From: Escherichia phage APECc02
Sequence record: NC_041869.1
Direction: 5' to 3' (one strand)
Length of the DNA: 64,000 nucleotides
This document shows, one piece after another, positions 40,328-52,530 of the stretch (positions are counted from its first letter, which is position 1; each line of letters begins with the position of its first letter). Under the pieces are notes generated by a model that was not told the DNA's origin, made no database searches, and saw nothing but the letters and a program-made list of their open reading frames with translations. Position numbers and translations under genes: made by a program.

Positions 40328-40356
40328 TTGACTATTGTTACAAAATTTGGTAAAAT
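40328..40356 (+). promoter_or_regulatory. promoter TTGACT-17-TAAAAT (TGGTAAAAT)
   Basis: -35 40328-40333, -10 40351-40356. Confidence 0.5.
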
Positions 40357-41891: not shown

Positions 41892-42578
41892 ATGGCAGAG
41901 ATTAAGTCGGATGTTAACCACATCCACACTCTGCCAGATTTTGTTCAGGGGGGTCTTGACTACCTGCCTGGAGATTTTCTGGCTGAGAAGGTTAATTTAG
42001 TCACATTCTTAACCGTATACCTTAAAAGGTTGGAGGATGTTGATAAGATGCTGGTAGGTTTGGCTGAAGGAAGATTGCTTAACAATGCCAGCGGAAGATA
42101 CCTTGACGAAGTTGGTAATCAACTTGGTATTCTTAGGAATGGACTTTCAGATGCTGATTTTCGTGCCACACTAATTATTCAGCAGGCCGCAGCATCAAGG
42201 GGCGGGACTCGCGAAGATGTCATCTCCACCTTGCGACAATTGTTCGGAAGAGACAATTTCGATACGTGGAAAGGAGACAACTTCAGGTTTGACATAAATA
42301 TTAGAAAAACTTGCTTTGACATATTGCAGTCTATAGATCAGATCTTAGATATGCTACCATTGCCTTGTCATTTGCGTCTTACAGAATCGCAAGGGCAAGC
42401 TTTTGGTTTTGAAGGGGACTCTACAGCTCTTGGCTTCGGATCAGTGTGGGAAGAAAACCAATTCGGAGTTGGTGGGCTGGCTACTTTGCTATATGTTCCT
42501 GACGTAAGACCTGATTGGGACACCACAACCATTTATTGTGAAAGTATTACAGTAAACGCAACTAGACAGGAGGGTTAA
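41892..42578 (+). CDS. hypothetical tail protein
   Basis: 228 aa. Confidence 0.35.
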   Translation: MAEIKSDVNHIHTLPDFVQGGLDYLPGDFLAEKVNLVTFLTVYLKRLEDVDKMLVGLAEGRLLNNASGRYLDEVGNQLGILRNGLSDADFRATLIIQQAAASRGGTREDVISTLRQLFGRDNFDTWKGDNFRFDINIRKTCFDILQSIDQILDMLPLPCHLRLTESQGQAFGFEGDSTALGFGSVWEENQFGVGGLATLLYVPDVRPDWDTTTIYCESITVNATRQEG

Positions 42579-44650
42579 TGGCAACAGCTGTTTTTAAACC
42601 TTACCGTGATTACTCTACAATGGCTGCACAGTTTCACTACCGAACAGTTCAGGATACTGCCGTTCCTGGTAGGGATTATAATCATGTTGAGGGCGATGTA
42701 ACTATCCCAATTGGGGCAACCAGTATTGAGATCCCCGTGGAAATTGTTGACAAATTACCCAACAGGTTACCAAGAAGCTTCTTTATGGAGTTTTCATCAA
42801 AATCTCAAGGGGTGATGATTGGGACACAAAGGGCGAAATGTACAATAGTTTCAGATGAGAATCTTGACAGGATATCCTGGGATACTGTTGAGGAGAGAAT
42901 GTTTCACCCAAGATATTGGGTTACAACCACTCAGCAGACTGAAAGTACCTGTATTGTTGCAGATGACAACTGTTGTATTAACCGTTTAGTGTCAAGAACA
43001 TATGGAGGTATGGCTGGGTGCATTTGGGAAACAGTTGACAAGTATGACCATTTCGGTATTGGGTTTGATGATCACTATGAGATGAGAAACACCAAGCTTT
43101 GGTTCAGAATGTCAATAACCAATGCCAGCAACTTCTCCACTCCTGAAAAGATGATTATGACTGTAGACCTTGTTGATGGCACAATCATCTATGTTCCTTT
43201 AGCTCAATATGCTGTCAGCATCTCAGAGGATAAGAATGTTGCAGAGATTCATATTGATTTCGAGGACTGCGTCGGGATGGATCAGAACAACAACATGATG
43301 GGTGTTGATCCTCGGCAGGTGAGAAGGATTTTAATACCGCTTATGCCTAAAGACTGGGTAAGTAATAGCACAGACCCGAGAACGGAAAATGTAGAGTGTG
43401 AGTTGCGCCTAGATCTGCTTCAGCCAGACACGGGCTGGAAAATGATGCAACTTAACAATATTCAGGTTAAAGAGCACGACGTCGGGATCTGCACCGCATA
43501 TGACGATATGTGGAACGTATCTCCTTTAAGGGTGTTGAACAATATCAAGCGTCTGGGCTATACCGGAACCATAAACCACTATGTTGGTATGAGTCATTAT
43601 TATGACTACACATGGTCAGGAACCCAATGGTCTATAAACAGAACAGGGGCGCTAAACGCTGCAGCTTATAAATGGCATGATGATTTTATGTACAATGCCA
43701 AACGACACAACTTCGACGTTATGCAGTCTGTAAGTTTTGAGCTTTACAGCGATGCCTGTCCGTTGGAATGGACCCAAAGAGACTGGAACGATAACTACGC
43801 TAAAACAGGGTATACACCTTGTAGCTACCTCCTGTCTCCAACCATTGAAGAGGGTATGAATTTCCTTACGGCAGTATTTAAGAATTTTGCATCAGCCGCT
43901 ATGAGAAACAACCTGCCAGTGATTATGCAGGTTGGTGAACCGTGGTGGTGGTTCAATACCGATACTCGTAGACCTTGTATTTATGATTACCCTACAAAAC
44001 AGGCGTTTTATGATGAGACAGGTGAGTATGCATTAGATATTGGGACTATTGACGATCCTAAAACTGGCGGTGTTTACGACAAGTATGTAGCATTTTGTCG
44101 TGGTAAGCTTGGCGCTCGTATTGCGGCTATTTCAAAGGCAATAAAGGCACACGCTGCATCAGCTCAGATGACAGCTTTACTGTTTTTCCCAACTATTATG
44201 GAAACCGAGCTTACGCAAAAGCTGAACCTTGCCGACCAATATAAAAAAGAAGCAGGTGCTCTTGATTTCTTCTGCACCGAGTGCTACGATTGGGTGATGC
44301 AGGGAGGTATTGAAAAGGCAAAAGAGTCTGTAAACATACCTATCGTTAAGTTAGGTTGGCAACCGTCTGAAATACAATACCTTGCAGGGTTCGTTCCTAG
44401 TAAAGAGCTTGCTCCGGTATATGGCTACGACCCAACCAGGAATTACCAAGAATTTTTATGGAGATGTATTTGCGGAAACATGGCAACTATAGAGTATAGA
44501 TATCCTGAGGTAAAACAGTATGTGTGGGCATACCCGCAAGTAATGTCTGACAGCATCACTGTTACCGCTAGAGATTCTACCGTGCTTCATATGGGGCAGG
44601 TTGCTCTGAAAGGGTATGTAGAAGATGTTGTCCCGCCAGACTTCTCATAA
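42578..44650 (+). CDS. tail fibre/tailspike protein, possible glycosidase-like C-terminal domain
   Basis: 690 aa, aromatic-rich C-terminal half. Confidence 0.4.
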   Translation: MATAVFKPYRDYSTMAAQFHYRTVQDTAVPGRDYNHVEGDVTIPIGATSIEIPVEIVDKLPNRLPRSFFMEFSSKSQGVMIGTQRAKCTIVSDENLDRISWDTVEERMFHPRYWVTTTQQTESTCIVADDNCCINRLVSRTYGGMAGCIWETVDKYDHFGIGFDDHYEMRNTKLWFRMSITNASNFSTPEKMIMTVDLVDGTIIYVPLAQYAVSISEDKNVAEIHIDFEDCVGMDQNNNMMGVDPRQVRRILIPLMPKDWVSNSTDPRTENVECELRLDLLQPDTGWKMMQLNNIQVKEHDVGICTAYDDMWNVSPLRVLNNIKRLGYTGTINHYVGMSHYYDYTWSGTQWSINRTGALNAAAYKWHDDFMYNAKRHNFDVMQSVSFELYSDACPLEWTQRDWNDNYAKTGYTPCSYLLSPTIEEGMNFLTAVFKNFASAAMRNNLPVIMQVGEPWWWFNTDTRRPCIYDYPTKQAFYDETGEYALDIGTIDDPKTGGVYDKYVAFCRGKLGARIAAISKAIKAHAASAQMTALLFFPTIMETELTQKLNLADQYKKEAGALDFFCTECYDWVMQGGIEKAKESVNIPIVKLGWQPSEIQYLAGFVPSKELAPVYGYDPTRNYQEFLWRCICGNMATIEYRYPEVKQYVWAYPQVMSDSITVTARDSTVLHMGQVALKGYVEDVVPPDFS

Positions 44651-44662
44651 TCAGGAGATAAA

Positions 44663-45703
44663 ATGTCAAAACCTAGTTTTCCATTAGAGATTTGGGCAGA
44701 GGAGGATCAGGTTCTGCCTAACACCCACAGACAGAACAGGCTACGCCCGATTGATGATTTGTGGAGAAAAGGTTGGGATCTTGGTCAAAAGCCCTCATGT
44801 GAAGAACTTAACTATATTTTCAATATGCTCGGGACTTGGGCAAAATACATTGCTGACGAGCAGATCCCCGCTCAAGAAGGCCGTTATCTGGTACGTGATA
44901 ATAACTTGAGCGATCTTTTGAACATCCCTGTTGCCCGTAGAAACCTTGGGATTATCACTAAGGAAGAGGCAGACGCCAGGTATGTAAAAGTTACAGGTGA
45001 TACAATGACAGGCCCCTTGGGGTTGCAACGTATCAACTTTAAAGCTGCCGAGACAGATAAGGCTTGGATAGAGACAACTATTGGCCCAGATAAGACAACT
45101 CTCGACTTTGGGTTAAGTGATAATACCGGGTCGTTTGATGATGGTGGTACATCTACAGTGGATGCGTTCCGTTGGAGATTCCAGCCAACTCAGCCGGATA
45201 TTAATCCAGAGTTCACTTTGATGTACCTTAACGCGATCACGGCTAACCGTGCGCTGTTGAAAGTGGTAGGCAATGTTGAAGTTGTCGATAACATGAGGTG
45301 CAATAACCTTACTATCAGCAATACAGCGACATTCACCAACTGTAATGTGGCTAGTCAGTTGACGGCTGGGTCAGTGTATGTTAATGGTGGTGCAAGTTGT
45401 GACAGTATGGTTGTAAGAAGCCAGCACTGTGTTGTCGGTAACAGAAATGTGGTTCGCTCTGTGAACGGAGTGACGGCTAACGGTAACGGTGATGTAACGA
45501 TCACTATCCCGCAGACAGGTGTGCAAGACATCAGAATCGGTGCAAGACTTGTGGACGGAGTTTCTGAATCTCCAATCCGCAACGGCTACGTTGTCACAGG
45601 CTGGCATTTCGGTGACAAAAAAGAGATGCGTGGTTCAACCTACTGGGCAGGACCTTTACAAAAACTTGTAAATGGTCAATGGATCACTGTTAATTATGCA
45701 TAG
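44663..45703 (+). CDS. receptor-binding tail fibre protein (paralog A)
   Basis: 346 aa; termini conserved with 46718 gene (ends GPLQKLVNGQWITVNYA). Confidence 0.55.
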   Translation: MSKPSFPLEIWAEEDQVLPNTHRQNRLRPIDDLWRKGWDLGQKPSCEELNYIFNMLGTWAKYIADEQIPAQEGRYLVRDNNLSDLLNIPVARRNLGIITKEEADARYVKVTGDTMTGPLGLQRINFKAAETDKAWIETTIGPDKTTLDFGLSDNTGSFDDGGTSTVDAFRWRFQPTQPDINPEFTLMYLNAITANRALLKVVGNVEVVDNMRCNNLTISNTATFTNCNVASQLTAGSVYVNGGASCDSMVVRSQHCVVGNRNVVRSVNGVTANGNGDVTITIPQTGVQDIRIGARLVDGVSESPIRNGYVVTGWHFGDKKEMRGSTYWAGPLQKLVNGQWITVNYA

Positions 45704-45717
45704 ATCGGAGGACTAGC

Positions 45718-46302
45718 ATGAAAATACTTCAAGAGTTTAAACTTTACCAACCGGGATCTGGCGAATACCGCACCAACAAGGAAACCAAGGAGCTGACCCC
45801 TCAAGAGGTTGAGGATTACACAGCATACACTGGGTATTTTTTACGTAATGATGATGGCGATTGGTATGTGCAGTCACGAACATTGCGACAAGAAAATCCG
45901 GGTTGTATCTTCCTACTTGTTGACGAGAAGGGAATTCTTAAGACATCTACAGAAGAACCTGATGCCTTATGGCCTGCTCCAGGTCTTCGTGTGGTTATCG
46001 CCAAAAAAGAAGAGGTACCAGAAAACATTATGCTTCACCACGACGCTTTGCGTTTAGTTGGTGATGAATTTGTCACAGATAATGAATTCTTTGTTCAACA
46101 GGCAGAGGGTGTCATAGAGACAGAACTTGCTTGGGCTACTGCTAGAATTGGTGCCTATCAAGACGTGATTGACCTTGAATATGATCTTACTGATGACCAG
46201 AAACGTAACATCAGAGATTTGAAAATGTACAGGGTAAAACTTCTTGAAATAGATACATCTAAAGCCCCTGACATTTTCTTCCCGGAGCGACCTACCCTCT
46301 AA
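45718..46302 (+). CDS. tail fibre assembly protein (Tfa-like)
   Basis: 194 aa; C-terminal DDQKRNIRDLKMYRVKLLEIDTSKAPDIFFPERP matches the conserved Tfa ending. Confidence 0.7.
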   Translation: MKILQEFKLYQPGSGEYRTNKETKELTPQEVEDYTAYTGYFLRNDDGDWYVQSRTLRQENPGCIFLLVDEKGILKTSTEEPDALWPAPGLRVVIAKKEEVPENIMLHHDALRLVGDEFVTDNEFFVQQAEGVIETELAWATARIGAYQDVIDLEYDLTDDQKRNIRDLKMYRVKLLEIDTSKAPDIFFPERPTL

Positions 46303-46313
46303 GAGGAGGTGTT

Positions 46314-46628
46314 GTGGAGTTGGATTTGGCGGCATTGTACGGTATCTGCATGGGTACCGTTGTCCCGATCTGTGTATGGGCTTTCAACCAGTGGCACACC
46401 AAATGGAAAGGCATTTCCAAGAGGTTGGATGAACTGGAGAAAGACCTCATCTTAGTGAAAAACAGTATGGTTACAAAAGATAAACTTGATTCCGTTATCG
46501 AGACCCGGTTAAGCAAGCTAGAGGCCGATATTAACGACCTTAAGCAGGATGTCAGGACAGATGTCTCCGGTATCCGAGCTGATGTACAAAAGATTTTGCA
46601 CATGCTCGTAGAGCATAGTAAAAGGTAA
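46314..46628 (+). CDS. hypothetical membrane-anchored coiled-coil protein
   Basis: GTG start with AGGAGG RBS; N-terminal hydrophobic helix LAALYGICMGTVVPICVWAF. Confidence 0.45.
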   Translation: MELDLAALYGICMGTVVPICVWAFNQWHTKWKGISKRLDELEKDLILVKNSMVTKDKLDSVIETRLSKLEADINDLKQDVRTDVSGIRADVQKILHMLVEHSKR

Positions 46629-46717
46629 ACAAAGGTCAGAACGGAAAGGACTCCGTTCTTGCATTTTGTTCTCTAAAGTGTTAAAATAGTCCTAAGGAAT
46701 TTTCTCAGGAGAACGCG

Positions 46718-47761
46718 ATGACTAAACCAGTTATCCCTCTTGATATTTGGGCCAATCAGGATGTTGTGCTTGAAAATACGGGAGAGTTGAATAAGTCTCA
46801 ACCAAAAAAAGAAGAGAGATTGAAAGGTTGGGATATGGCACAAAGAGTGGCATGTGAAGTTGTTAACTTTGAACTTCACATGCTTTCTGCGTGGTTAAAG
46901 CATCTAACAGAAGATGTTGTCCCAGGATGGGATAATAGATTCTTAAGGGTCACTAATAATCTAGCAGACGTTCCAGACAAAGCTGCTGCACGTCAAGTTC
47001 TCAATGTATACTCGCCTGAAGAAATGGACGATTTGTATGTTGACAAGTCTGGAGACATAATGACTCAGACTCAAACTTTAGGTCTTCAAAGAATCGAGTT
47101 TGCATCTGCGTCAACAGACAATGCGGCAATATATACCACCATAACTCCAGACAAGACGACGATGGATTTCTGGATTATGGACAACATCGGTGGTGCTGAC
47201 GGCACAGACCTTGATGATCCTTCTCACCAAATAGACGGGTTCCGTTGGAGATTTCAACCTTCTGGTGGGCAGCCTGTGTTTTCGGCTATGAAGCTCAATG
47301 CTATAACTGCCAACCGTGCAAGACTGGCCATCCAAGGAAATCTTGAATGCAACGATGCAAAAAGTTCCTCTGCAAATGCCAATGCGGTCACGATACCAAG
47401 AGCCACTGTTAACGGACAACAATCCTGCGGAAGCGCTCAAATAGGTGGAAGAGTTGATTGTAACGATGAAACAGTCAGGGGTCAATATGCAACAGTTGGT
47501 GGAAGAAACGTGGTCCGCAGGGTAAATGGTAACGGCGCAGACAGTAGTGGTAACCTTACTATCCCTATGCCCAGCAGAGGGGTTGATGATGTAAGGATAG
47601 CAAACCGTTTCAAAACCACCTACAGAGAGTCAAGAGTCTACCCTGGACATGTGATGTGCTCTGGTAACTACGCTTATAAACACCCTTATCAAGGTGATTA
47701 CTGGACAGGTGCTATCCAAAAACTTGTAAATGGTCAATGGATCACTATATCTTATGCTTAA
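46718..47761 (+). CDS. receptor-binding tail fibre protein (paralog B)
   Basis: 347 aa; ends GAIQKLVNGQWITISYA; N-terminus similar to paralog A. Confidence 0.55.
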   Translation: MTKPVIPLDIWANQDVVLENTGELNKSQPKKEERLKGWDMAQRVACEVVNFELHMLSAWLKHLTEDVVPGWDNRFLRVTNNLADVPDKAAARQVLNVYSPEEMDDLYVDKSGDIMTQTQTLGLQRIEFASASTDNAAIYTTITPDKTTMDFWIMDNIGGADGTDLDDPSHQIDGFRWRFQPSGGQPVFSAMKLNAITANRARLAIQGNLECNDAKSSSANANAVTIPRATVNGQQSCGSAQIGGRVDCNDETVRGQYATVGGRNVVRRVNGNGADSSGNLTIPMPSRGVDDVRIANRFKTTYRESRVYPGHVMCSGNYAYKHPYQGDYWTGAIQKLVNGQWITISYA

Positions 47762-47772
47762 AAAGAGGGTAA

Positions 47773-48039
47773 ATGAAACTAACTCAGTTTTTATGGGGAC
47801 TGGTTGCGGCATCTGATGACCCTACGAAAGTGTCCCAAACTAAGCTATGGTCGAACATAGGCATGGCGGTGATGACTGGGGTGTTTATTCATATGGGGTA
47901 TAATGATACGCTTCCTGAATGGTATGCGTGGATATACGCGCCTTCAGTAGCTTGCCCCCAGCTTATTAGCAAATTCATCTCGCTCCGGTGGGGTTGCCAG
48001 CACCCTGACCACGTTAAAAACGAAGAGCAAAAAGCTTAA
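47773..48039 (+). CDS. hypothetical small membrane protein (two predicted TM segments)
   Basis: 88 aa; hydrophobic segments FLWGLVAASD and IGMAVMTGVFIHM, charged C-terminus. Confidence 0.4.
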   Translation: MKLTQFLWGLVAASDDPTKVSQTKLWSNIGMAVMTGVFIHMGYNDTLPEWYAWIYAPSVACPQLISKFISLRWGCQHPDHVKNEEQKA

Positions 48040-48048
48040 GGAGAAATC

Positions 48049-49809
48049 ATGGCGCAAGACATGACAAGCTTTGAGCAGGCGGTAGATCAAGTAATTGTTG
48101 ATTCTGAACGTTTGCACTTGGTTGTCAACGGTAACGCTGTGGATGAAGTTGTCGTAGAGGATGGGACCACCATCCCTACGGTACGAAAAGCCATGCTTGA
48201 CAACCTTTATTTTAAAACGCCACCGATCCCTTGGGCGTATGGTGCATCCACAACAGTTTTTAACCAGCTGTACGAGTTTAAAGGGGACACAGGCCCTCAG
48301 TGGTGGTACGCTCCCGCAGCATCAAAATCTAACCCGGTTAGAATGCCAGCAGATCCTTCACAATCTCCAAACTGGAGATTATATACCGACTCTGCAGTAA
48401 TGGCAAAATACTACGCAAAACTTAACAGCCCGAGGTTCGAAGGTGACCCACGAGTACCTACACCTCCAATGGACGATAAGTCAGAGTCCATAGCAAACAC
48501 AGAGTTTGTTGTTGACTATGTTGATAGCATATTTAAAGCCATGGAGGGGATGAAAGTTACTGTAGGGTCTTTGGTGGTAAAAGGTCTTACAGAACTCGCT
48601 AACACTATAGTTGGTGGCACCCTTACCTTACATGGACCTGTTAATGGGGCAGATTCTACTGCACGCTTTAGGAATCTAATCCTCACGGCAAATACTTCTA
48701 CACTTACTTTTGCGTGGAGCGATCCTAAGCATGCAGACTGGAGAAGTACAGAGCTGCAACCTCATGAAGTGTCCACCCACAGGGTTATAGCTGACAGGGT
48801 TATAGCTGACACTATAACTTCTGGGAAACCAGTGGCTAATAATAACGATGTGCATTTTGATGGTCTGGGTAATAACTTTTTTGACTACGTGTACATTCGT
48901 GGTAATGCCATGAAGGCAGCAACCGAACCGACATTGCAGGTCGATGGGACCACCAGGGTTAAGAACCTTGAGGTGACAGGTACCGTTACAGGGATAACAT
49001 ACTCTGTCGATGGCACCATGATCTACCCTAGCTATATTGAAAGCACGGGTGATGCATTGATAAATGGCGATTTGGAGGTTGGCGGGTCTGTAGTTATTCG
49101 AGGTACAGCCTCTATCCAAAATATAGCTCTGAATACTCTAAGAGTCAATGAGCGTGCAACTTTTGAAGGAGAAGGGCTTACAGCCAATAAAGGTACAATT
49201 ACCGAGCTAACCACCACCACTTTAACTGCAACAACTGCAAACTCTGAAAACTGCAACATTACCAGAAACTTGCAGGTAAATGGAGATGTTAGTTTAAACG
49301 CCGCAGGGACTGGCACCACCCACCTTCACAACCTTGAAATATCCGGCACAGTGACCGGGTGGCTGCCAGACTTCTCTAATGTCAACTTTGTCTGTAATGG
49401 CATTAACTCCAGTGGTAAGATAACCACCTCTCAAGAAATTGAGGCGGGTAAAACCATTACTGCCCCTACTTTCCACGCAGGAAAGGTAGATTTTGACTTA
49501 GAGGAGGTTGACGCGTCCAGTGGGACATGGACACCTAACGGGCAGGCCAGCATGTATGTTGTCCACGCGAAAGGGGATTTTACAATAGGACAGTGGCCTG
49601 GGACATCAGCGGAAGATAAACCTTATCCATTCACTGCAGTTATCTATGTCATTCAGGATGCTGTAGGTCACAACGTGACTTTGCACGATAAGTATGCTAT
49701 CCTGTCGGCAACACCTGTTATTAACAACAAGGCTAACAGTGTTACCTTGCTGCAATTAACGTATTGTGGTGTTGGTGATATTGTAGACGTAGTAATTGCA
49801 CAACGTTAA
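48049..49809 (+). CDS. tail fibre protein
   Basis: 586 aa, Thr/Gly/Asn-rich repetitive beta-type sequence. Confidence 0.5.
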   Translation: MAQDMTSFEQAVDQVIVDSERLHLVVNGNAVDEVVVEDGTTIPTVRKAMLDNLYFKTPPIPWAYGASTTVFNQLYEFKGDTGPQWWYAPAASKSNPVRMPADPSQSPNWRLYTDSAVMAKYYAKLNSPRFEGDPRVPTPPMDDKSESIANTEFVVDYVDSIFKAMEGMKVTVGSLVVKGLTELANTIVGGTLTLHGPVNGADSTARFRNLILTANTSTLTFAWSDPKHADWRSTELQPHEVSTHRVIADRVIADTITSGKPVANNNDVHFDGLGNNFFDYVYIRGNAMKAATEPTLQVDGTTRVKNLEVTGTVTGITYSVDGTMIYPSYIESTGDALINGDLEVGGSVVIRGTASIQNIALNTLRVNERATFEGEGLTANKGTITELTTTTLTATTANSENCNITRNLQVNGDVSLNAAGTGTTHLHNLEISGTVTGWLPDFSNVNFVCNGINSSGKITTSQEIEAGKTITAPTFHAGKVDFDLEEVDASSGTWTPNGQASMYVVHAKGDFTIGQWPGTSAEDKPYPFTAVIYVIQDAVGHNVTLHDKYAILSATPVINNKANSVTLLQLTYCGVGDIVDVVIAQR

Positions 49810-49857: not shown

Positions 49858-50295
49858 ATGCTTCCAATCCCTTTGCTAAAACTTGGTCGTCATTTCCTCG
49901 ATAAGAGGGGTGGAATTAAGGAACTTGCTGTTCTGTCATACCCAATAGACAACAGTGATGGTACAAGCAACACAGTATCCTATGTAAATAGCTTAGCTAT
50001 ACTTTTTGATGATGGTCAGCTTAATATTACTGGCTATAATAGGTTCGGAGAGTGTCGGACTGGAGATCTTGATACAATAAACTATCCTAATGAGGCAGCT
50101 TGGAACGTAGACCATGTTTGGAGAGCTGACCGTGCATTTGTAATCCGCACATTCGATAATAAATTTTTCTATATTGGTTGCACAGCTGGTCTTATCGGGA
50201 TCGGAGGCAGCAGGTGGAAACGATGTTTGTGTCAGAGAGTGGGCACCTTTGCCGGAACAGATCGTAACAGGGTTGCATTTGGACACCCATCCTGA
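49858..50295 (+). CDS. tail fibre-like protein, N-terminal segment (frame 1)
   Basis: GGAG RBS; overlaps open frame 2 from 50144. Confidence 0.4.
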   Translation: MLPIPLLKLGRHFLDKRGGIKELAVLSYPIDNSDGTSNTVSYVNSLAILFDDGQLNITGYNRFGECRTGDLDTINYPNEAAWNVDHVWRADRAFVIRTFDNKFFYIGCTAGLIGIGGSRWKRCLCQRVGTFAGTDRNRVAFGHPS

Positions 50296-51223
50296 GAGAC
50301 TTGTTGAAGTAATGGGTGGCGTAAACAATACAGTGTGGGTAATTGCTGCACCAGAGGCTGATGGTATGCTTCACCTGTACGGCTCTGGCAATAATACTTA
50401 CGGCTCTCTTCATGTTGACAAAAGTCAACACGCTACTCCAGTTAAGATCGGTGAAACATCTGAAAGTCCAGAGACAGGTCCTTGGAAAAATCCAAGAATT
50501 AATTGTGAAGTTCATGACAACTCGGTTATTTTTGGTGGTCCTAACGGATTCTGGATTGCAGGTTACGATTTCTTAAGAAATAACAGCAAAAACACACTAG
50601 TTTATCCAGCCGAGCATGTGACTCTTGACCAGTTTAAAGGCATCCCGGTGGGCGAGACATGGAAAGGGTTCATGTGTGGACCTAATGGTGCAATTATAGC
50701 CACAGAAAGGATGCACAAACCTGATGACCAACAGCTTGTTAATGTGTTTTATGGTCAGGATGTTTGGGGTGACGACACGTGGAGAAGCCTTAACATCACC
50801 TATACCCATGAAGTAATTATGGCTCGCGGGTACGGGACTAGTGGAATTTTCTTCAATAATGGTACAAAACAGTACCGTGGTTTCTCCAGAAACCTGTGTA
50901 ACGATATTGGTGCTCAATCTGCTAATAATAGTCCTAGGGCCAATTTTATTCATTACAGAGCGCTGGCAACAGCTAAGTTTGTTGAACAGACAGAGCCAGT
51001 AAGCTGGACAGAAAGCGTTTATTTTCAAGGGATCCACAGGGAAGGTTTCTTAGGCACATTCTGTGTGGTAAATGGAAAGCTTTGGTGGTCAGGAATACCA
51101 CGTGGTAGTTTTTCAGGATCTAATAACCTCTTTAGCGGCAGACTTAACAGCCAAGGGTTGCTAAAGTTTTCTCAGGTATTAAATGGAATCTACCTGTCCA
51201 AAGTATTTCATGGAAGCAAATAG
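50174..51223 (+). CDS. tail fibre-like protein, middle segment (frame 2; no ATG/RBS, likely continuation)
   Basis: 349-codon ORF; first in-frame start candidate is TTG without RBS. Confidence 0.4.
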   Translation: MVAQLVLSGSEAAGGNDVCVREWAPLPEQIVTGLHLDTHPERLVEVMGGVNNTVWVIAAPEADGMLHLYGSGNNTYGSLHVDKSQHATPVKIGETSESPETGPWKNPRINCEVHDNSVIFGGPNGFWIAGYDFLRNNSKNTLVYPAEHVTLDQFKGIPVGETWKGFMCGPNGAIIATERMHKPDDQQLVNVFYGQDVWGDDTWRSLNITYTHEVIMARGYGTSGIFFNNGTKQYRGFSRNLCNDIGAQSANNSPRANFIHYRALATAKFVEQTEPVSWTESVYFQGIHREGFLGTFCVVNGKLWWSGIPRGSFSGSNNLFSGRLNSQGLLKFSQVLNGIYLSKVFHGSK

Positions 51224-51324
51224 GTGATAACAAGCTGCTGGTTACCCCTGCCTGTCAGTTCAACGCAACTCTTAACGTTGATCCTGCTGTTGCGGCAAAC
51301 TCAGCTAAAGCTTCTGACTTCTCT

Positions 51325-52530
51325 GTGTCTAACACTGCTATGGCAGATGTGAGGAAGATTGACACGCTGAACGCCAGAATTACCTGTAAAAACACTTATG
51401 GCACATTCCAAATCATCAACAACTTCACAGATGCTGATTCTAAGGTAGTGAGGACAGCAAGCCAGACTCTGAGTTTAGGGACTCTGGCCTATGCGGCCCT
51501 GATCACCGAACAGTCGGCAACACTCCAAGGAGGCGGTGTAGGCAAGTCCATTGCAACACCTGTGTGGAAGCCGAATGAGTGGGTTGTGTTTGATTTGACT
51601 GTGGACTTCTCCAGTGATAATAACTGGACATGGGTAAGGAATTGTTTGTCACAGTTGATGGGCGGTCCAAGCTCCGTTAGTGATAGTCACGACTCTACTG
51701 ACCCGAGTGTGTTCCAGGTAGGTAAAACTCACCCAGAGACTGGAGAAACGTTGCCTGACAGGAAGTATGCGTTGGTTTGCATCTCTTACGGGAAGGCAGA
51801 TGTCACCTTCTCAGGGACACACACTTATAACGGAACCTACAATTTCTCAAGGAAGTATAGTCTCAAAGCAGGGAACATTATAGACGAGGTTGGTGCACTG
51901 TATAATCCTGGCAACGGCATAGGGATTGTGGGTGGTCAACTGCAGATGCAGGAACCTTCTATTACCCCTTCCAACGTATCTGGGATTAGAAAGACTTGGG
52001 AAAGTAGCAATACCAACATTGCAACAGTGGATGCTACCACAGGACTGGTAACATTTAAAGCTACTGGGAATGTCACCATAAAGTTTGTAGTTACAGATGA
52101 TGCAGGCCGCAAAACGTCCTCAACATCATTCACTGTCAAACAGATGGCACCTCAGTGGTTTATTTGGGAAGGAAATCCTCTTGACGGGGCCTACCCTAGA
52201 CCTGCAGGAACGTCTAATATGAGGGTCTTTACCGGTCCGGTAATGAACAATCCGACCACAACCACCAACCCTACATTTTTTGGTGCTTACATACCTGAAA
52301 TTATTGGCCTACCAAGGAACCAGATACAACTGCTTTTCGGAGCAGGTGTTGATGGTCTAGCCACTTTTGGGTACAGTGACAACATTGATGCAGCCAGAAG
52401 CTCGGGTTGGATTGGATTTAAGTTTCAGTGGAACCCTGGTGGTAGAACATTAGGTCTTGCAAGCATAGGTGTTATGCTACCTGGTAACCAGCAATACCAT
52501 CTCGAAGCTTATACAAACTTCCCTAGTTAA
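51325..52530 (+). CDS. tail fibre-like protein, C-terminal segment with bacterial Ig-like (BIG2-type) domain
   Basis: Frame 1 is open from 51148; Ig-like segment ITPSNVSGIRKTWESSNTNIATVDATTGLVTFKATGNVTIKFVVTDDAGRKTSSTSFTV. Confidence 0.45.
   Translation: MSNTAMADVRKIDTLNARITCKNTYGTFQIINNFTDADSKVVRTASQTLSLGTLAYAALITEQSATLQGGGVGKSIATPVWKPNEWVVFDLTVDFSSDNNWTWVRNCLSQLMGGPSSVSDSHDSTDPSVFQVGKTHPETGETLPDRKYALVCISYGKADVTFSGTHTYNGTYNFSRKYSLKAGNIIDEVGALYNPGNGIGIVGGQLQMQEPSITPSNVSGIRKTWESSNTNIATVDATTGLVTFKATGNVTIKFVVTDDAGRKTSSTSFTVKQMAPQWFIWEGNPLDGAYPRPAGTSNMRVFTGPVMNNPTTTTNPTFFGAYIPEIIGLPRNQIQLLFGAGVDGLATFGYSDNIDAARSSGWIGFKFQWNPGGRTLGLASIGVMLPGNQQYHLEAYTNFPS

What the first reader, a model, noticed from the sequence alone, without database searches (positions are those of the whole stretch)
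44663..47761. Duplicated receptor-binding protein cassettes with near-identical termini
Seen in sequence: two fibre genes (346 and 347 aa) share a similar N-terminus and an almost identical C-terminal peptide (G.(L/I)QKLVNGQWIT..YA), with about 30 identical nucleotides at their 3' ends (caaaaacttgtaaatggtcaatggatcact) while the middle differs. One is followed by a Tfa-type chaperone, the other by small membrane-type ORFs. Inference: alternative host-range modules that can swap by homologous recombination at the conserved ends.
Basis: partly seen in the sequence, partly recalled or inferred. Interest (0 to 1): 0.55.

Follow-up and report, generated by a model that had tools for sequence, protein, structure and literature searches.

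The report
Two paralogous rV5 short tail fibres
The window is an rV5-like E. coli phage, and the two similar genes are its already described pair of short tail fibres (gp33 and gp30) with one shared assembly chaperone: fixed co-resident paralogs rather than swappable cassettes, whose identical 30-base ends are a short gene-conversion patch.

Summary
ORFs 44663-45703 (346 aa) and 46718-47761 (347 aa) are 43% identical over their full length and share an exact 30-nt stretch near their 3' ends.

The window is a Vequintavirus, 99.6% identical to phage PMBT16. The genes are rV5 gp33 and gp30, with the Tfa chaperone gp32 between them. Kropinski 2013 found all three in virions and proposed recognition of two LPS chemotypes. 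Maffei 2021 called them paralogous short tail fibres related to Mu GpS/GpU.

Both genes are present at 92-100% nt identity in about 113 GenBank genomes. The same gene order holds in much more divergent metagenomic lineages. They are therefore not alternative alleles that swap.

The conserved C-terminal peptide is a hallmark of the Mu-S-type fibre tip, present even in Mu S and S'. The 30-nt identity does exceed what amino-acid conservation explains (p about 3.5e-5). A sister lineage carries the same three synonymous changes in both copies, and another has a 110-nt perfect tract. This points to recurrent short gene conversion between the paralogs.

gp33 keeps the ancestral tip. gp30 has a derived tip and sits behind its own terminator hairpin and late-promoter-like motif. 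The finding is known biology with one small new evolutionary detail.

The parts
44663..45703 (+). Short tail fibre paralog A (ortholog of rV5 gp33), 346 aa. It has an N-terminal baseplate anchor, a shaft and a Mu-GpS-type tip. It keeps the ancestral tip type.
   Evidence: ORF. phrog_4465, E 1.8e-171. Residues 1-108 match the phiTE short tail fibre 9CUY at 1.4e-19, and residues 286-343 match Mu fibre S 5YVQ at 1.7e-6. The tip is 57-60% identical to the single fibres of Seuna-, Justusliebig- and Phapecoctavirus.
45659..45688 (+). Copy 1 of the 30-nt exact repeat, codons QKLVNGQWIT. It encodes the last beta-strand region of the tip and is a gene-conversion tract.
45718..46302 (+). Tail fibre assembly chaperone (Tfa; ortholog of rV5 gp32), 194 aa. 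It is the only Tfa in the locus.
   Evidence: PF02413 Caudo_TAP, E 1.3e-11. phrog_136, E 7.4e-36. gp32 was detected in rV5 virions.
46314..46628 (+). orf104 (ortholog of rV5 gp31), a small protein with one N-terminal TM helix and a coiled coil. Its function is unknown. It is conserved next to tfa in Seuna- and Mydovirus (32-33% identity to window orf104, E ~1e-21); in Justusliebig- and Phapecoctavirus a 111-113-aa ORF occupies the same position but shows no BLASTP match to window orf104.
   Evidence: phrog_5345, E 1.1e-48. Hydropathy. Homologs.
46638..46659 (+). Intrinsic-terminator-like hairpin followed by TTGCATTTTGT. It ends the unit that begins at the baseplate genes and includes fibre A, tfa and orf104.
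   Evidence: The hairpin is kept, with changed stem sequences, in FV3, L016, L015, L019 and L020.
46679..46688 (+). Late-promoter-like motif TGTTAAAATA, 30 nt upstream of the start of fibre B.
   Evidence: TGKTAAAATA has 5 matches in 64 kb, all on the + strand, against 0.36 expected. It resembles the rV5 late motif TggTAaAAtA (PMC3606486). GTG(T/C)TAAAATA is conserved in all lineages.
46718..47761 (+). Short tail fibre paralog B (ortholog of rV5 gp30), 347 aa. It has the same architecture as A but a derived, faster-evolving tip (residues about 294-333).
   Evidence: ORF. phrog_4465, E 6.2e-166. The N-terminus matches 9CUY at 8e-10. The only significant Foldseek PDB hit of the model is 5YVQ_A, E 2.1e-5. 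dN is 0.021 against 0.005 for A. Its nearest relative among 1.84 billion representatives is fibre A, at 45%.
47717..47746 (+). Copy 2 of the 30-nt exact repeat.
47773..48039 (+). orf88 (ortholog of rV5 gp29), a small conserved protein annotated as a membrane protein. It lies between fibre B and the 586-aa lateral fibre gene.
   Evidence: phrog_1322, E 1.1e-32. Homologs exist in Seuna-, Mydo-, Justusliebig- and Phapecoctavirus. No strong TM peak was found.

Best explanation
The locus encodes the two co-expressed short tail fibres of a Vequintavirus (rV5-like myophage) and the single Tfa chaperone that serves them.

Each fibre is inferred to be a homotrimer with three parts:
- an N-terminal domain that docks on the baseplate wedge, as in phiTE;
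- a beta-rich shaft;
- a C-terminal tip of the Mu GpS type, which binds a sugar of the LPS core as terminal receptor.

Fibre A (gp33) is the positional and sequence ortholog of the single short fibre of related genera and keeps their tip. Fibre B (gp30) is an old in-situ duplicate. It sits behind its own terminator hairpin and late-promoter-like motif, evolves faster, and in the rV5 lineage has a tip found nowhere else. It therefore probably adds a second LPS-core specificity.

The shared end, (P/A)(L/I)QKLVNGQWIT, is the last strand of the Mu-S-type tip. It is conserved across the whole family for structural reasons, and probably also because one Tfa has to start trimerisation of both fibres. 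Its identity at the nucleotide level comes from recurrent short gene conversion between the two tandem copies, not from a cassette-swapping device.

Basis of each step:
- Shown here: homology, synteny, conservation and the conversion tracts.
- Shown in the literature: presence of both fibres and the Tfa in virions.
- Inferred: trimer state, sharing of the Tfa, different receptors.
For: Identity of the locus:
- The region is 99.6% identical to PMBT16, and 115 vequintavirus records match it.
- The genes map to rV5 gp33/32/31/30/29.
- The BASEL annotation reads 'short tail fiber protein (x2), tail fiber chaperone'.
- In the rV5 virion proteome, gp30, gp32 and gp33 were detected, the two fibres were 42.3% identical, and 'two chemotypes of LPS' was proposed.
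- Maffei 2021 describes paralogous short fibres plus a chaperone homologous to Mu GpS/GpU, no allelic variation, and dependence on the LPS outer-core glucose.

Fold and family:
- The family profile hits phiTE STF 9CUY at 1e-37, Mu S 5YVQ at 8.8e-14 and Mu S' 8JU3 at 1.3e-5. The terminal motif aligns to Mu ...RPVQKNINGTWYNV.
- The fibre B model hits only 5YVQ_A significantly.
- In Tfa proteins the variable N-terminal domain binds the fibre tip, and TfaMu stays on the virion (PMC9608196).

Evolution:
- The N-terminal and shaft segments group by paralog across all lineages.
- The A tip is 57-60% identical to the outgroups, against 32-43% for the B tip.
- Seuna- and Mydovirus have one fibre, with a 157-aa TM protein in the B slot.
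- No donor for the B tip was found among 1.84 billion representatives or in GenBank phages.
- dN/dS is 0.016 for A and 0.067 for B.

Gene conversion:
- Codon identity at identical residues elsewhere is 42/132, or 32%. Nine degenerate codons in a row therefore have p about 3.5e-5.
- In the L016 lineage both copies share CTG/GTC/CAG, although dS to the window is saturated.
- L019 has a 110-nt perfect tract, and L020 has a 30-nt tract at a shifted position.

Separate transcription unit.
Against: - No experiment shows that the two fibres bind different receptors. All tested vequintaviruses fail on the same waaC and waaG mutants, which would also fit a single shared receptor.
- Sharing of the one Tfa by both fibres is inferred only from the absence of a second Tfa gene and from the common terminal strand.
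- The monomer structure model is poor (pLDDT 58.9), so domain boundaries rest mainly on sequence alignments.
- The conversion inference rests on few independent lineages, three of which are metagenome assemblies.
- In L015 and L020 the high tip similarity (84-93% aa) is mostly retained by selection rather than recent conversion: codon identity is about 53% there against 44% elsewhere.
Confidence: 0.72

Rival explanations
1. One reading: the two genes are alternative host-range cassettes that exchange, within or between genomes, by homologous recombination at conserved 5' and 3' ends.
For: A 30-nt exact repeat lies at the 3' ends, and gene-conversion tracts occur between the copies. Between genera, the tip plus chaperone module is exchanged. 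The Mydovirus AV124 fibre is 47% identical to A over residues 1-291 but then carries a different tip and a different chaperone. The Phapecoctavirus fibre is 61% identical to A over only the last 59 residues.
Against: Both genes are fixed in tandem in 113-114 full-length records at 92-100% nt identity, and no record holds only one copy, a chimera or a foreign allele. There is no 5' nucleotide handle; the longest other in-register match is 15 nt. Direct repeats would cause a deletion that removes tfa. N-terminal and shaft segments group strictly by paralog across saturated divergence. The variable host-range genes of this genus are the large lateral fibre genes (Maffei 2021).
Confidence: 0.1
2. 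The 30-nt identity has no recombinational origin. It follows from an invariant peptide plus codon preference, or it is a relic of the duplication.
For: The peptide motif Q(K/Y)x(V/I)NGxW(I/V)T is conserved throughout the family, including Mu S and S'. In L015, L019 and L020 the same peptide is encoded with 7-9 nucleotide differences between the copies, so the peptide alone is clearly under selection.
Against: Elsewhere only 32% of codons for identical residues match, which gives p about 3.5e-5 for nine in a row, or about 0.005 after allowing for position. In the L016 lineage both copies carry the same three synonymous changes relative to the window, although dS between the lineages is saturated. 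A relic cannot explain that.
Confidence: 0.1
3. The identical 30 nt is a functional nucleic-acid element, such as an RNA structure, a regulatory site or a homing/nuclease target, kept at the end of both genes.
For: The repeat is exact within coding sequence that is otherwise about 55% identical. Both copies lie 15 nt before a stop codon and just upstream of a closely spaced downstream gene.
Against: The tract drifts at the normal rate. There are 2-4 differences between copies in the FV3 clade, including a Leu-to-Phe change, and 7-9 in L015/L019/L020. Conversion tracts fall at different positions in different lineages. The downstream genes and spacers differ between the two copies.
Confidence: 0.03
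4. Fibre B was imported by horizontal transfer from another phage or prophage rather than duplicated in place.
For: It has its own terminator hairpin and late-promoter-like motif, and it occupies the slot where Seuna- and Mydovirus carry an unrelated 157-aa membrane protein. Its tip is unlike that of any relative.
Against: Its nearest relative anywhere is fibre A: 45% over the tip among 1.84 billion representatives and 43% overall. No closer sequence exists in GenBank phages. The architecture and length match A throughout.
Confidence: 0.1

Closest known systems
rV5 gp33 / gp32 / gp30 (Kropinski et al. 2013, Virol J 10:76) and the BASEL Vequintavirus 'short tail fiber (x2) + tail fiber chaperone' locus (Maffei et al. 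2021, PLoS Biol)
   Same: These are the same genes. fibA and fibB are 98.2-98.5% nt identical to rV5. Gene order matches, as do the lengths of 346 and 347 aa and the roughly 42-43% identity between paralogs. Both fibres and the Tfa are in virions, and the literature already proposes recognition of two LPS chemotypes.
   Different: Nothing essential differs. The searchable literature did not mention the 30-nt identical tract or concerted evolution of the 3' ends.
Phage Mu tail fibre GpS/GpS' with chaperones GpU/GpU' (PDB 5YVQ, 8JU3)
   Same: The shaft and C-terminal tip are homologous (profile E 8.8e-14 and 1.3e-5). Both families share the terminal motif RP(V/I)Q..(I/V)NG.W.., a Caudo_TAP chaperone encoded directly downstream, and a chaperone that stays on the virion.
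   Different: Mu expresses one of two tips at a time by inverting the G segment, and each tip has its own chaperone. Here there are no inverted repeats, both genes are expressed together, and there is one chaperone. The N-terminal baseplate anchor is of the phiTE/Vequintavirinae type, not the Mu type.
Short tail fibre of Pectobacterium phage phiTE (PDB 9CUY/9MJN; PMC11972413)
   Same: The N-terminal roughly 90-108 residues are homologous (1.4e-19 for A, 8e-10 for B). In phiTE this segment (residues 3-92) forms the joint that attaches to the wedge. The terminal PIQKKVNGVWVTI motif is also shared.
   Different: phiTE has a single fibre of 554 aa with a long predicted coiled coil, and it is flagellotropic. 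The rV5 fibres are 346-347 aa, and there are two of them.
T4 gp12 short tail fibre
   Same: It has the same role: a baseplate-bound trimer that binds the LPS core irreversibly and triggers contraction. Kropinski 2013 reported HHpred similarity of gp30 and gp33 to 1PDI.
   Different: Sequence or profile searches of the PDB here gave no match at E <= 1. T4 gp12 uses gp57A, not a Tfa. T4 has one short-fibre gene whose alleles vary between phages.
Mosaic recombination at conserved motifs in T-even distal fibre and adhesin genes (Tetart et al. 1998, J Mol Biol; cited from my own knowledge, not checked here)
   Same: Short conserved sequence blocks inside fibre genes act as sites of homologous exchange, producing patchy tracts.
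   Different: In the T-evens, exchange between genomes changes adhesin specificity. Here the tracts lie between two tandem paralogs of one genome, and in this lineage they have not homogenised the receptor-binding part.

Membership tests
Mu GpS-type tail fibre with Tfa (Caudo_TAP) chaperone | C-terminal tip domain homologous to Mu S | tested here: met
   Fibre A alone matches 5YVQ at 1.7e-6 over residues 286-343. The family profile matches at 8.8e-14, plus Mu S' at 1.3e-5. For the fibre B model, the only significant Foldseek PDB hit is 5YVQ_A, E 2.1e-5. Fibre B alone gave no phmmer hit.
Mu GpS-type tail fibre with Tfa (Caudo_TAP) chaperone | A Tfa gene directly downstream of the fibre gene | tested here: inconclusive
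   This is met for fibre A: the Tfa at 45718-46302 matches PF02413 at 1.3e-11. It is not met for fibre B, whose downstream gene is orf88 with no Pfam hit. B would have to use the Tfa encoded upstream.
Mu GpS-type tail fibre with Tfa (Caudo_TAP) chaperone | Folding and trimerisation of the fibre depend on the Tfa, which stays bound to the tip | not testable with these tools
   There is only indirect support. gp32 was detected in rV5 virions, and TfaMu behaves this way.
Vequintavirinae-type short tail fibre (phiTE STF-like) | N-terminal wedge-docking domain homologous to phiTE STF residues 3-92 | tested here: met
   The match to 9CUY chain c is 1.4e-19 for A (residues 1-108), 8e-10 for B (residues 1-83) and 1e-37 for the profile. 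The docking role is described in PMC11972413.
Vequintavirinae-type short tail fibre (phiTE STF-like) | Gene placed in the baseplate/fibre module, in the order baseplate genes, STF, Tfa, small TM protein | tested here: met
   Fibre A, tfa and orf104 follow the two baseplate genes and the 690-aa NCTSP-like RBP (42578-44650). The same neighbourhood is seen in rV5, FV3, SSE121, AV124, JohannJBalmer and ukendt; in SSE121, AV124 and ukendt the STF directly follows the baseplate genes, without the intervening 690-aa gene.
Swappable host-range cassette (allelic replacement between related genomes) | Different alleles occupy the slot in closely related genomes | tested here: not met
   There are 114 (A) and 113 (B) full-length matches, all at 92-100% nt identity. 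In divergent lineages, orthologs diverge together with their flanking genes.
Swappable host-range cassette (allelic replacement between related genomes) | Conserved nucleotide handles on both sides of a variable body | tested here: not met
   Only the 3' handle exists (30 nt). The longest other shared in-register run is 15 nt, in mid-gene, and the 5' end has at most 12 nt.
Invertible-segment fibre switch (Mu G, P1 C, shufflons) | Inverted repeats flanking alternative 3' gene segments | tested here: not met
   There are 0 inverted repeats of at least 14 nt in 44400-48200, and all repeats are direct. Both genes are on the same strand and have their own starts.
T4 gp12 short tail fibre family | Detectable sequence homology to gp12 | tested here: not met
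   No gp12 chain appears among PDB hits at E <= 1 with either protein or with the family profile. Kropinski 2013 reports an HHpred match to 1PDI, which was not reproduced here.

The most novel reading that the evidence does not exclude
The tandem pair may work as a built-in tip-diversification system. The invariant last-strand codons, and other conserved blocks of the tip, would act as anchors for recurrent gene conversion between the two resident fibre genes. Lineages could then move between a state with two specificities (rV5 and L016, tips 45% identical) and a state with one (L015/L019/L020, tips 84-93% identical; L019 with a 110-nt perfect tract), all under the constraint of a single shared Tfa. 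A more speculative variant is that the common terminal strand and single chaperone allow mixed A/B heterotrimers.
Probability: 0.2. Interest if true: 0.45.

Novelty: already known. Interest (0 to 1): 0.22.

Why it matters
rV5-like phages are among the most frequently isolated E. coli phages and are used in biocontrol and therapy cocktails. Knowing which protein sets the terminal receptor matters for predicting and engineering host range.

The paired short fibres and their chaperone are already in the literature, so the finding adds little. Three points are added here:
- gp33 is the ancestral ortholog, and gp30 is a faster-evolving duplicate with a tip seen nowhere else.
- gp30 sits behind its own conserved terminator hairpin and late-promoter-like motif.
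- The 3' ends of the two genes exchange short conversion tracts.

These points identify gp30's tip, at about residues 294-333, as the obvious target for receptor-specificity experiments.

Tried and rejected
- IMG/VR scan for more genomes: only 4 loci came back, too few for a population test. Divergent lineages were found instead through the protein database and contig look-ups.
- AlphaFold2 monomer model of fibre B with a 29-sequence alignment: mean pLDDT 58.9 and pTM 0.25, with only the last roughly 60 residues reasonably confident. It was used only for a Foldseek check. No second model was run, because a monomer of a trimeric fibre is not informative.
- T4 gp12 homology: not detectable by phmmer or hmmsearch against the PDB.
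- Invertible-segment idea: rejected, as there are no inverted repeats.
- Foreign origin of the gp30 tip: rejected for lack of any closer relative.
- Reading the high tip similarity in L015 and L020 as recent gene conversion: withdrawn after checking synonymous codons, which are about 53% identical there against 44% elsewhere. Only L019, L020 (30 nt), L016 and the rV5 clade show clear tracts.
- Two recent receptor papers (PMC12548472, PMC13419801) and the 2026 receptor-prediction preprint contain nothing on the two short fibres of Vequintavirus.
- Sigma-70 promoter scan: not enriched, with 8 found against 6.5 expected. It was not used.
Full report
OBSERVATION. The ORF list shows two same-strand genes, 44663-45703 (346 aa, 'fibre A') and 46718-47761 (347 aa, 'fibre B'). 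They are 43% identical over their entire length (E 9e-95). It is the core of a 62-nt direct repeat that is 84% identical, with a spacing of 2058 nt. Fibre A is followed by a 194-aa protein with a Caudo_TAP (Tfa) domain (PF02413, E 1.3e-11) and by a 104-aa protein with one TM helix and a coiled coil. Fibre B is followed by an 88-aa ORF of a PHROG annotated 'membrane protein'. The description is therefore correct. One caveat is that the N-termini are only 38% identical in protein, with no nucleotide match longer than 15 nt. Only the last roughly 14 residues are near-identical.

WHAT THE WINDOW IS. The region is 99.6% identical to Escherichia phage PMBT16 and matches 115 phage records, nearly all of them Vequintavirus (rV5-like myophages). 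Against the rV5 reference, the genes are gp33 (A), gp32 (Tfa), gp31 (orf104), gp30 (B), gp29 (orf88) and gp28 (the 586-aa lateral fibre). The BASEL records annotate the same genes as 'short tail fiber protein (x2)' and 'tail fiber chaperone'.

WHAT IS ALREADY PUBLISHED. Kropinski et al. 2013 (PMC3606486) detected gp30, gp32 and gp33 in the virion proteome. [quoted passage not shown] Maffei et al. 2021 (PMC8594841) state that Vequintavirinae sensu stricto encode two paralogous short tail fibre proteins and a chaperone, homologous to the single-fibre locus of phi92-like phages and ultimately to Mu GpS/GpU. They also report that these paralogs show no considerable allelic variation between genomes, and that all tested members fail on waaC and waaG mutants.

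ANATOMY.
- N-terminus: residues 1-108 of A and 1-83 of B are homologous to the short tail fibre of phage phiTE (PDB 9CUY; 1.4e-19 and 8e-10). In the phiTE cryo-EM structure, residues 3-92 form the joint that attaches to the baseplate wedge.
- Shaft and tip: a profile of 29 family members also matches Mu fibre S (5YVQ, 8.8e-14) in the shaft and in the C-terminal tip (profile positions 281-349), and matches Mu S' (8JU3, 1.3e-5).
- Terminal motif: it aligns to Mu S ...RPVQKNINGTWYNV and Mu S' ...RPIQYCINGTWYNA. The same motif ends the single fibres of Seunavirus (LQYLINGQWVTV), Justusliebigvirus (LQYYINGSWITV), Phapecoctavirus (LQYYVNGRWVTV), phiTE (IQKKVNGVWVTI) and, with a different tip, Mydovirus (LQKALDGIWYTV).
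- Consequence: conservation of the peptide is a family-wide structural feature of this tip fold, not something peculiar to this pair.
- Structure model: an AlphaFold2 monomer model of B was poor (pLDDT 58.9). Its only significant Foldseek hit in the PDB was nevertheless the Mu fibre-chaperone complex 5YVQ_A (E 2.1e-5).
- Chaperone: according to PMC9608196, the variable N-terminal domain of Tfa proteins binds the distal fibre tip, the conserved C-terminal helices trimerise, and TfaMu remains on the virion. This agrees with gp32 being found in rV5 particles.

NO CASSETTE SWAPPING IN THE GENUS. Fibre A has 114 and fibre B 113 full-length matches, all at 92-100% nucleotide identity. The few partial matches are record ends or fragments. 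No record carries only one gene, a chimera or a foreign allele. Between the window and the FV3 clade, dN/dS is 0.016 for A and 0.067 for B, so both are functional genes under purifying selection. The repeats are direct, so a crossover between them would delete tfa, orf104 and the body of B. There are no inverted repeats. Between genera, modules are exchanged, but at a different place. The Mydovirus fibre is 47% identical to A up to about residue 291 and then carries an unrelated tip with a different chaperone. The Phapecoctavirus fibre is 61% identical to A in only the last 59 residues.

ORIGIN OF THE PAIR. Protein-database hits led to contigs of more divergent vequintavirus-like phages: L016-L018 (B 78% identical to the window's) and L015, L019 and L020 (B about 48%). 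All of them keep the order A, tfa, orf104, B, small ORF, gp28. In segment-wise comparisons, the N-terminal and shaft parts group strictly by paralog. A-to-A identity is 71-87%, B-to-B is 46-80%, and A-to-B is always 37-51%. The duplication therefore predates all these lineages. Seunavirus and Mydovirus have one fibre, with a 157-aa multi-TM protein (PF26221) in the B slot. The A tip is 57-60% identical to the outgroup tips, and the window's B tip only 32-43%. A is thus the ancestral ortholog and B carries a derived tip. A search of 1.84 billion representative proteins with the last 108 residues of B found nothing closer than fibre A (45%). A search of GenBank phages likewise found nothing closer. 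Divergence in place is therefore more likely than import. In L015, L019 and L020 both fibres keep the ancestral tip type and are 84-93% identical there.

THE 30-NT IDENTITY. Outside the tail, only 42 of 132 identical, degenerate residues (32%) use the same codon. Nine such codons in a row have p about 3.5e-5, or about 0.005 after allowing for position. The tract is not a fixed nucleotide element.
- The two copies differ at 2-4 positions in the FV3 clade, including a Leu-to-Phe change.
- They differ at 7-9 positions in L015, L019 and L020.
- In the L016 clade both copies carry CTG, GTC and CAG where both window copies carry CTT, GTA and CAA, although synonymous divergence between these lineages is saturated.

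The same three synonymous changes in both copies are the signature of concerted evolution. Other lineages show perfect tracts at other positions in the tip: 110 nt in L019 (gene positions 865-974), 30 nt in L020 (975-1004), and 23 and 19 nt in L015. In L015 and L020, however, codon identity in the tip is only about 53% against 44% elsewhere. Their high protein similarity is therefore mostly retained by selection, not by recent conversion. The best reading is recurrent, short gene conversion between the tandem paralogs, superimposed on strong selection for the terminal strand.

EXPRESSION. A terminator-like hairpin (46638-46659, followed by TTGCATTTTGT) lies after orf104. Then comes TGTTAAAATA (46679-46688), followed by a Shine-Dalgarno sequence and the start of B. 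TGKTAAAATA occurs five times in the window, always on the + strand, against 0.36 expected. One copy sits at 40348, upstream of the first baseplate gene. It resembles the rV5 late motif TggTAaAAtA. The hairpin (with changed stem sequences), the TTGCATTTT run and GTG(T/C)TAAAATA are kept in all the divergent lineages. B thus appears to head its own late transcription unit. That these motifs function as terminator and promoter is inferred, not shown.

MECHANISM. I consider it most likely that virions carry two kinds of homotrimeric short fibre. Both would be anchored by the phiTE-like N-terminus and folded from the tip by the single Tfa, gp32. The shared terminal strand would be the common structural and docking element. 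A would bind the ancestral LPS-core target, and B a second core variant.
- Shown here: homology, synteny, conservation and the conversion tracts.
- Shown in the literature: presence of both fibres and the Tfa in virions.
- Inferred: trimer state, the shared chaperone and the distinct receptors.

The uniform waaC/waaG dependence would also fit a single receptor.

NOVELTY. The pair, its chaperone, its relation to Mu GpS/GpU and the two-receptor idea are all published. The conversion tracts, the polarity (A ancestral, B derived) and the separate promoter were not found in the searchable literature. They are refinements of a known system, and the finding rates low in interest.

Noticed in passing
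window 49858-52530: The large lateral tail-fibre gene (ortholog of MaxBurger bas54_0041, 1875 aa, 'intimin/Ig-like domain') is broken here. There is a +1 G insertion at 50199 (GG to GGG) and a 2,956-nt internal deletion between 10-bp direct repeats GCCAAGGGTT at 51150-51159. This leaves ORFs of 145, 349 (TTG start) and 401 (GTG start) aa. The two lesions sum to 0 mod 3. It may reflect adaptation to rough laboratory hosts (the closest relative, PMBT16, was grown on DH5alpha), or the +1 may be a sequencing error.
   Followed up: partly
window 42578-44650: The 690-aa gene just upstream of fibre A has N4 gp65-like domains (PF23844 NCTSP_N, PF23845 TIM-barrel_NCTSP at 1.2e-79, and Calx-beta). It also contains the GMSHY motif (…HYVGMSHYYDY…), which a 2026 preprint (10.64898/2026.04.02.716166) reports as the conserved signature of tail proteins binding the NGR polysaccharide. 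It is probably the primary-receptor RBP.
   Followed up: partly
window 16444, 19965, 35077, 40348, 46679: TGKTAAAATA occurs five times, all on the + strand, against 0.36 expected by chance. This matches the rV5 late-promoter-like motif TggTAaAAtA and marks probable late transcription starts.
   Followed up: partly
GenBank records MG0656xx (e.g. MG065635, MG065654, MG065662): Sixteen records named 'Campylobacter phage', with Campylobacter jejuni given as host for 15 of them, are 97-99% identical to this E. coli vequintavirus locus. They are probably mislabelled, or E. coli phages carried along in a Campylobacter phage collection.
   Followed up: no
L007 5497-5970 (Salmonella phage SSE121), L009 5347-5820 (AV124), L021 7958-8431: In Seuna- and Mydovirus the slot held by fibre B in Vequintavirus carries a 157-aa protein with about five hydrophobic segments (PF26221, Phage_phiTE_239). 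The small proteins orf104 (TM plus coiled coil) and orf88 are conserved beside the fibre and chaperone genes in Seuna- and Mydovirus, and orf88 also has homologs in Justusliebig- and Phapecoctavirus. The role of these membrane-type proteins inside a tail-fibre module is unknown.
   Followed up: partly
L009 3501-5026 (Escherichia phage AV124, Mydovirus): The short fibre is 47% identical to fibre A up to about residue 291. It then switches to an unrelated tip and is followed by a divergent 159-aa chaperone. This places the real inter-genus module boundary (tip plus chaperone) near the conserved VGGRNVVRxVNG…GVQDIR blocks.
   Followed up: partly
L016 9124-13044, L017 9124-13044, L018 9124-13044: In three otherwise near-identical metagenomic vequintavirus contigs, the gene after the gp28 ortholog differs completely: 475+183+1209 aa, 1876 aa, and 1499 aa. 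This large lateral-fibre slot, not the short-fibre pair, is the cassette-like variable host-range locus of the group.
   Followed up: no
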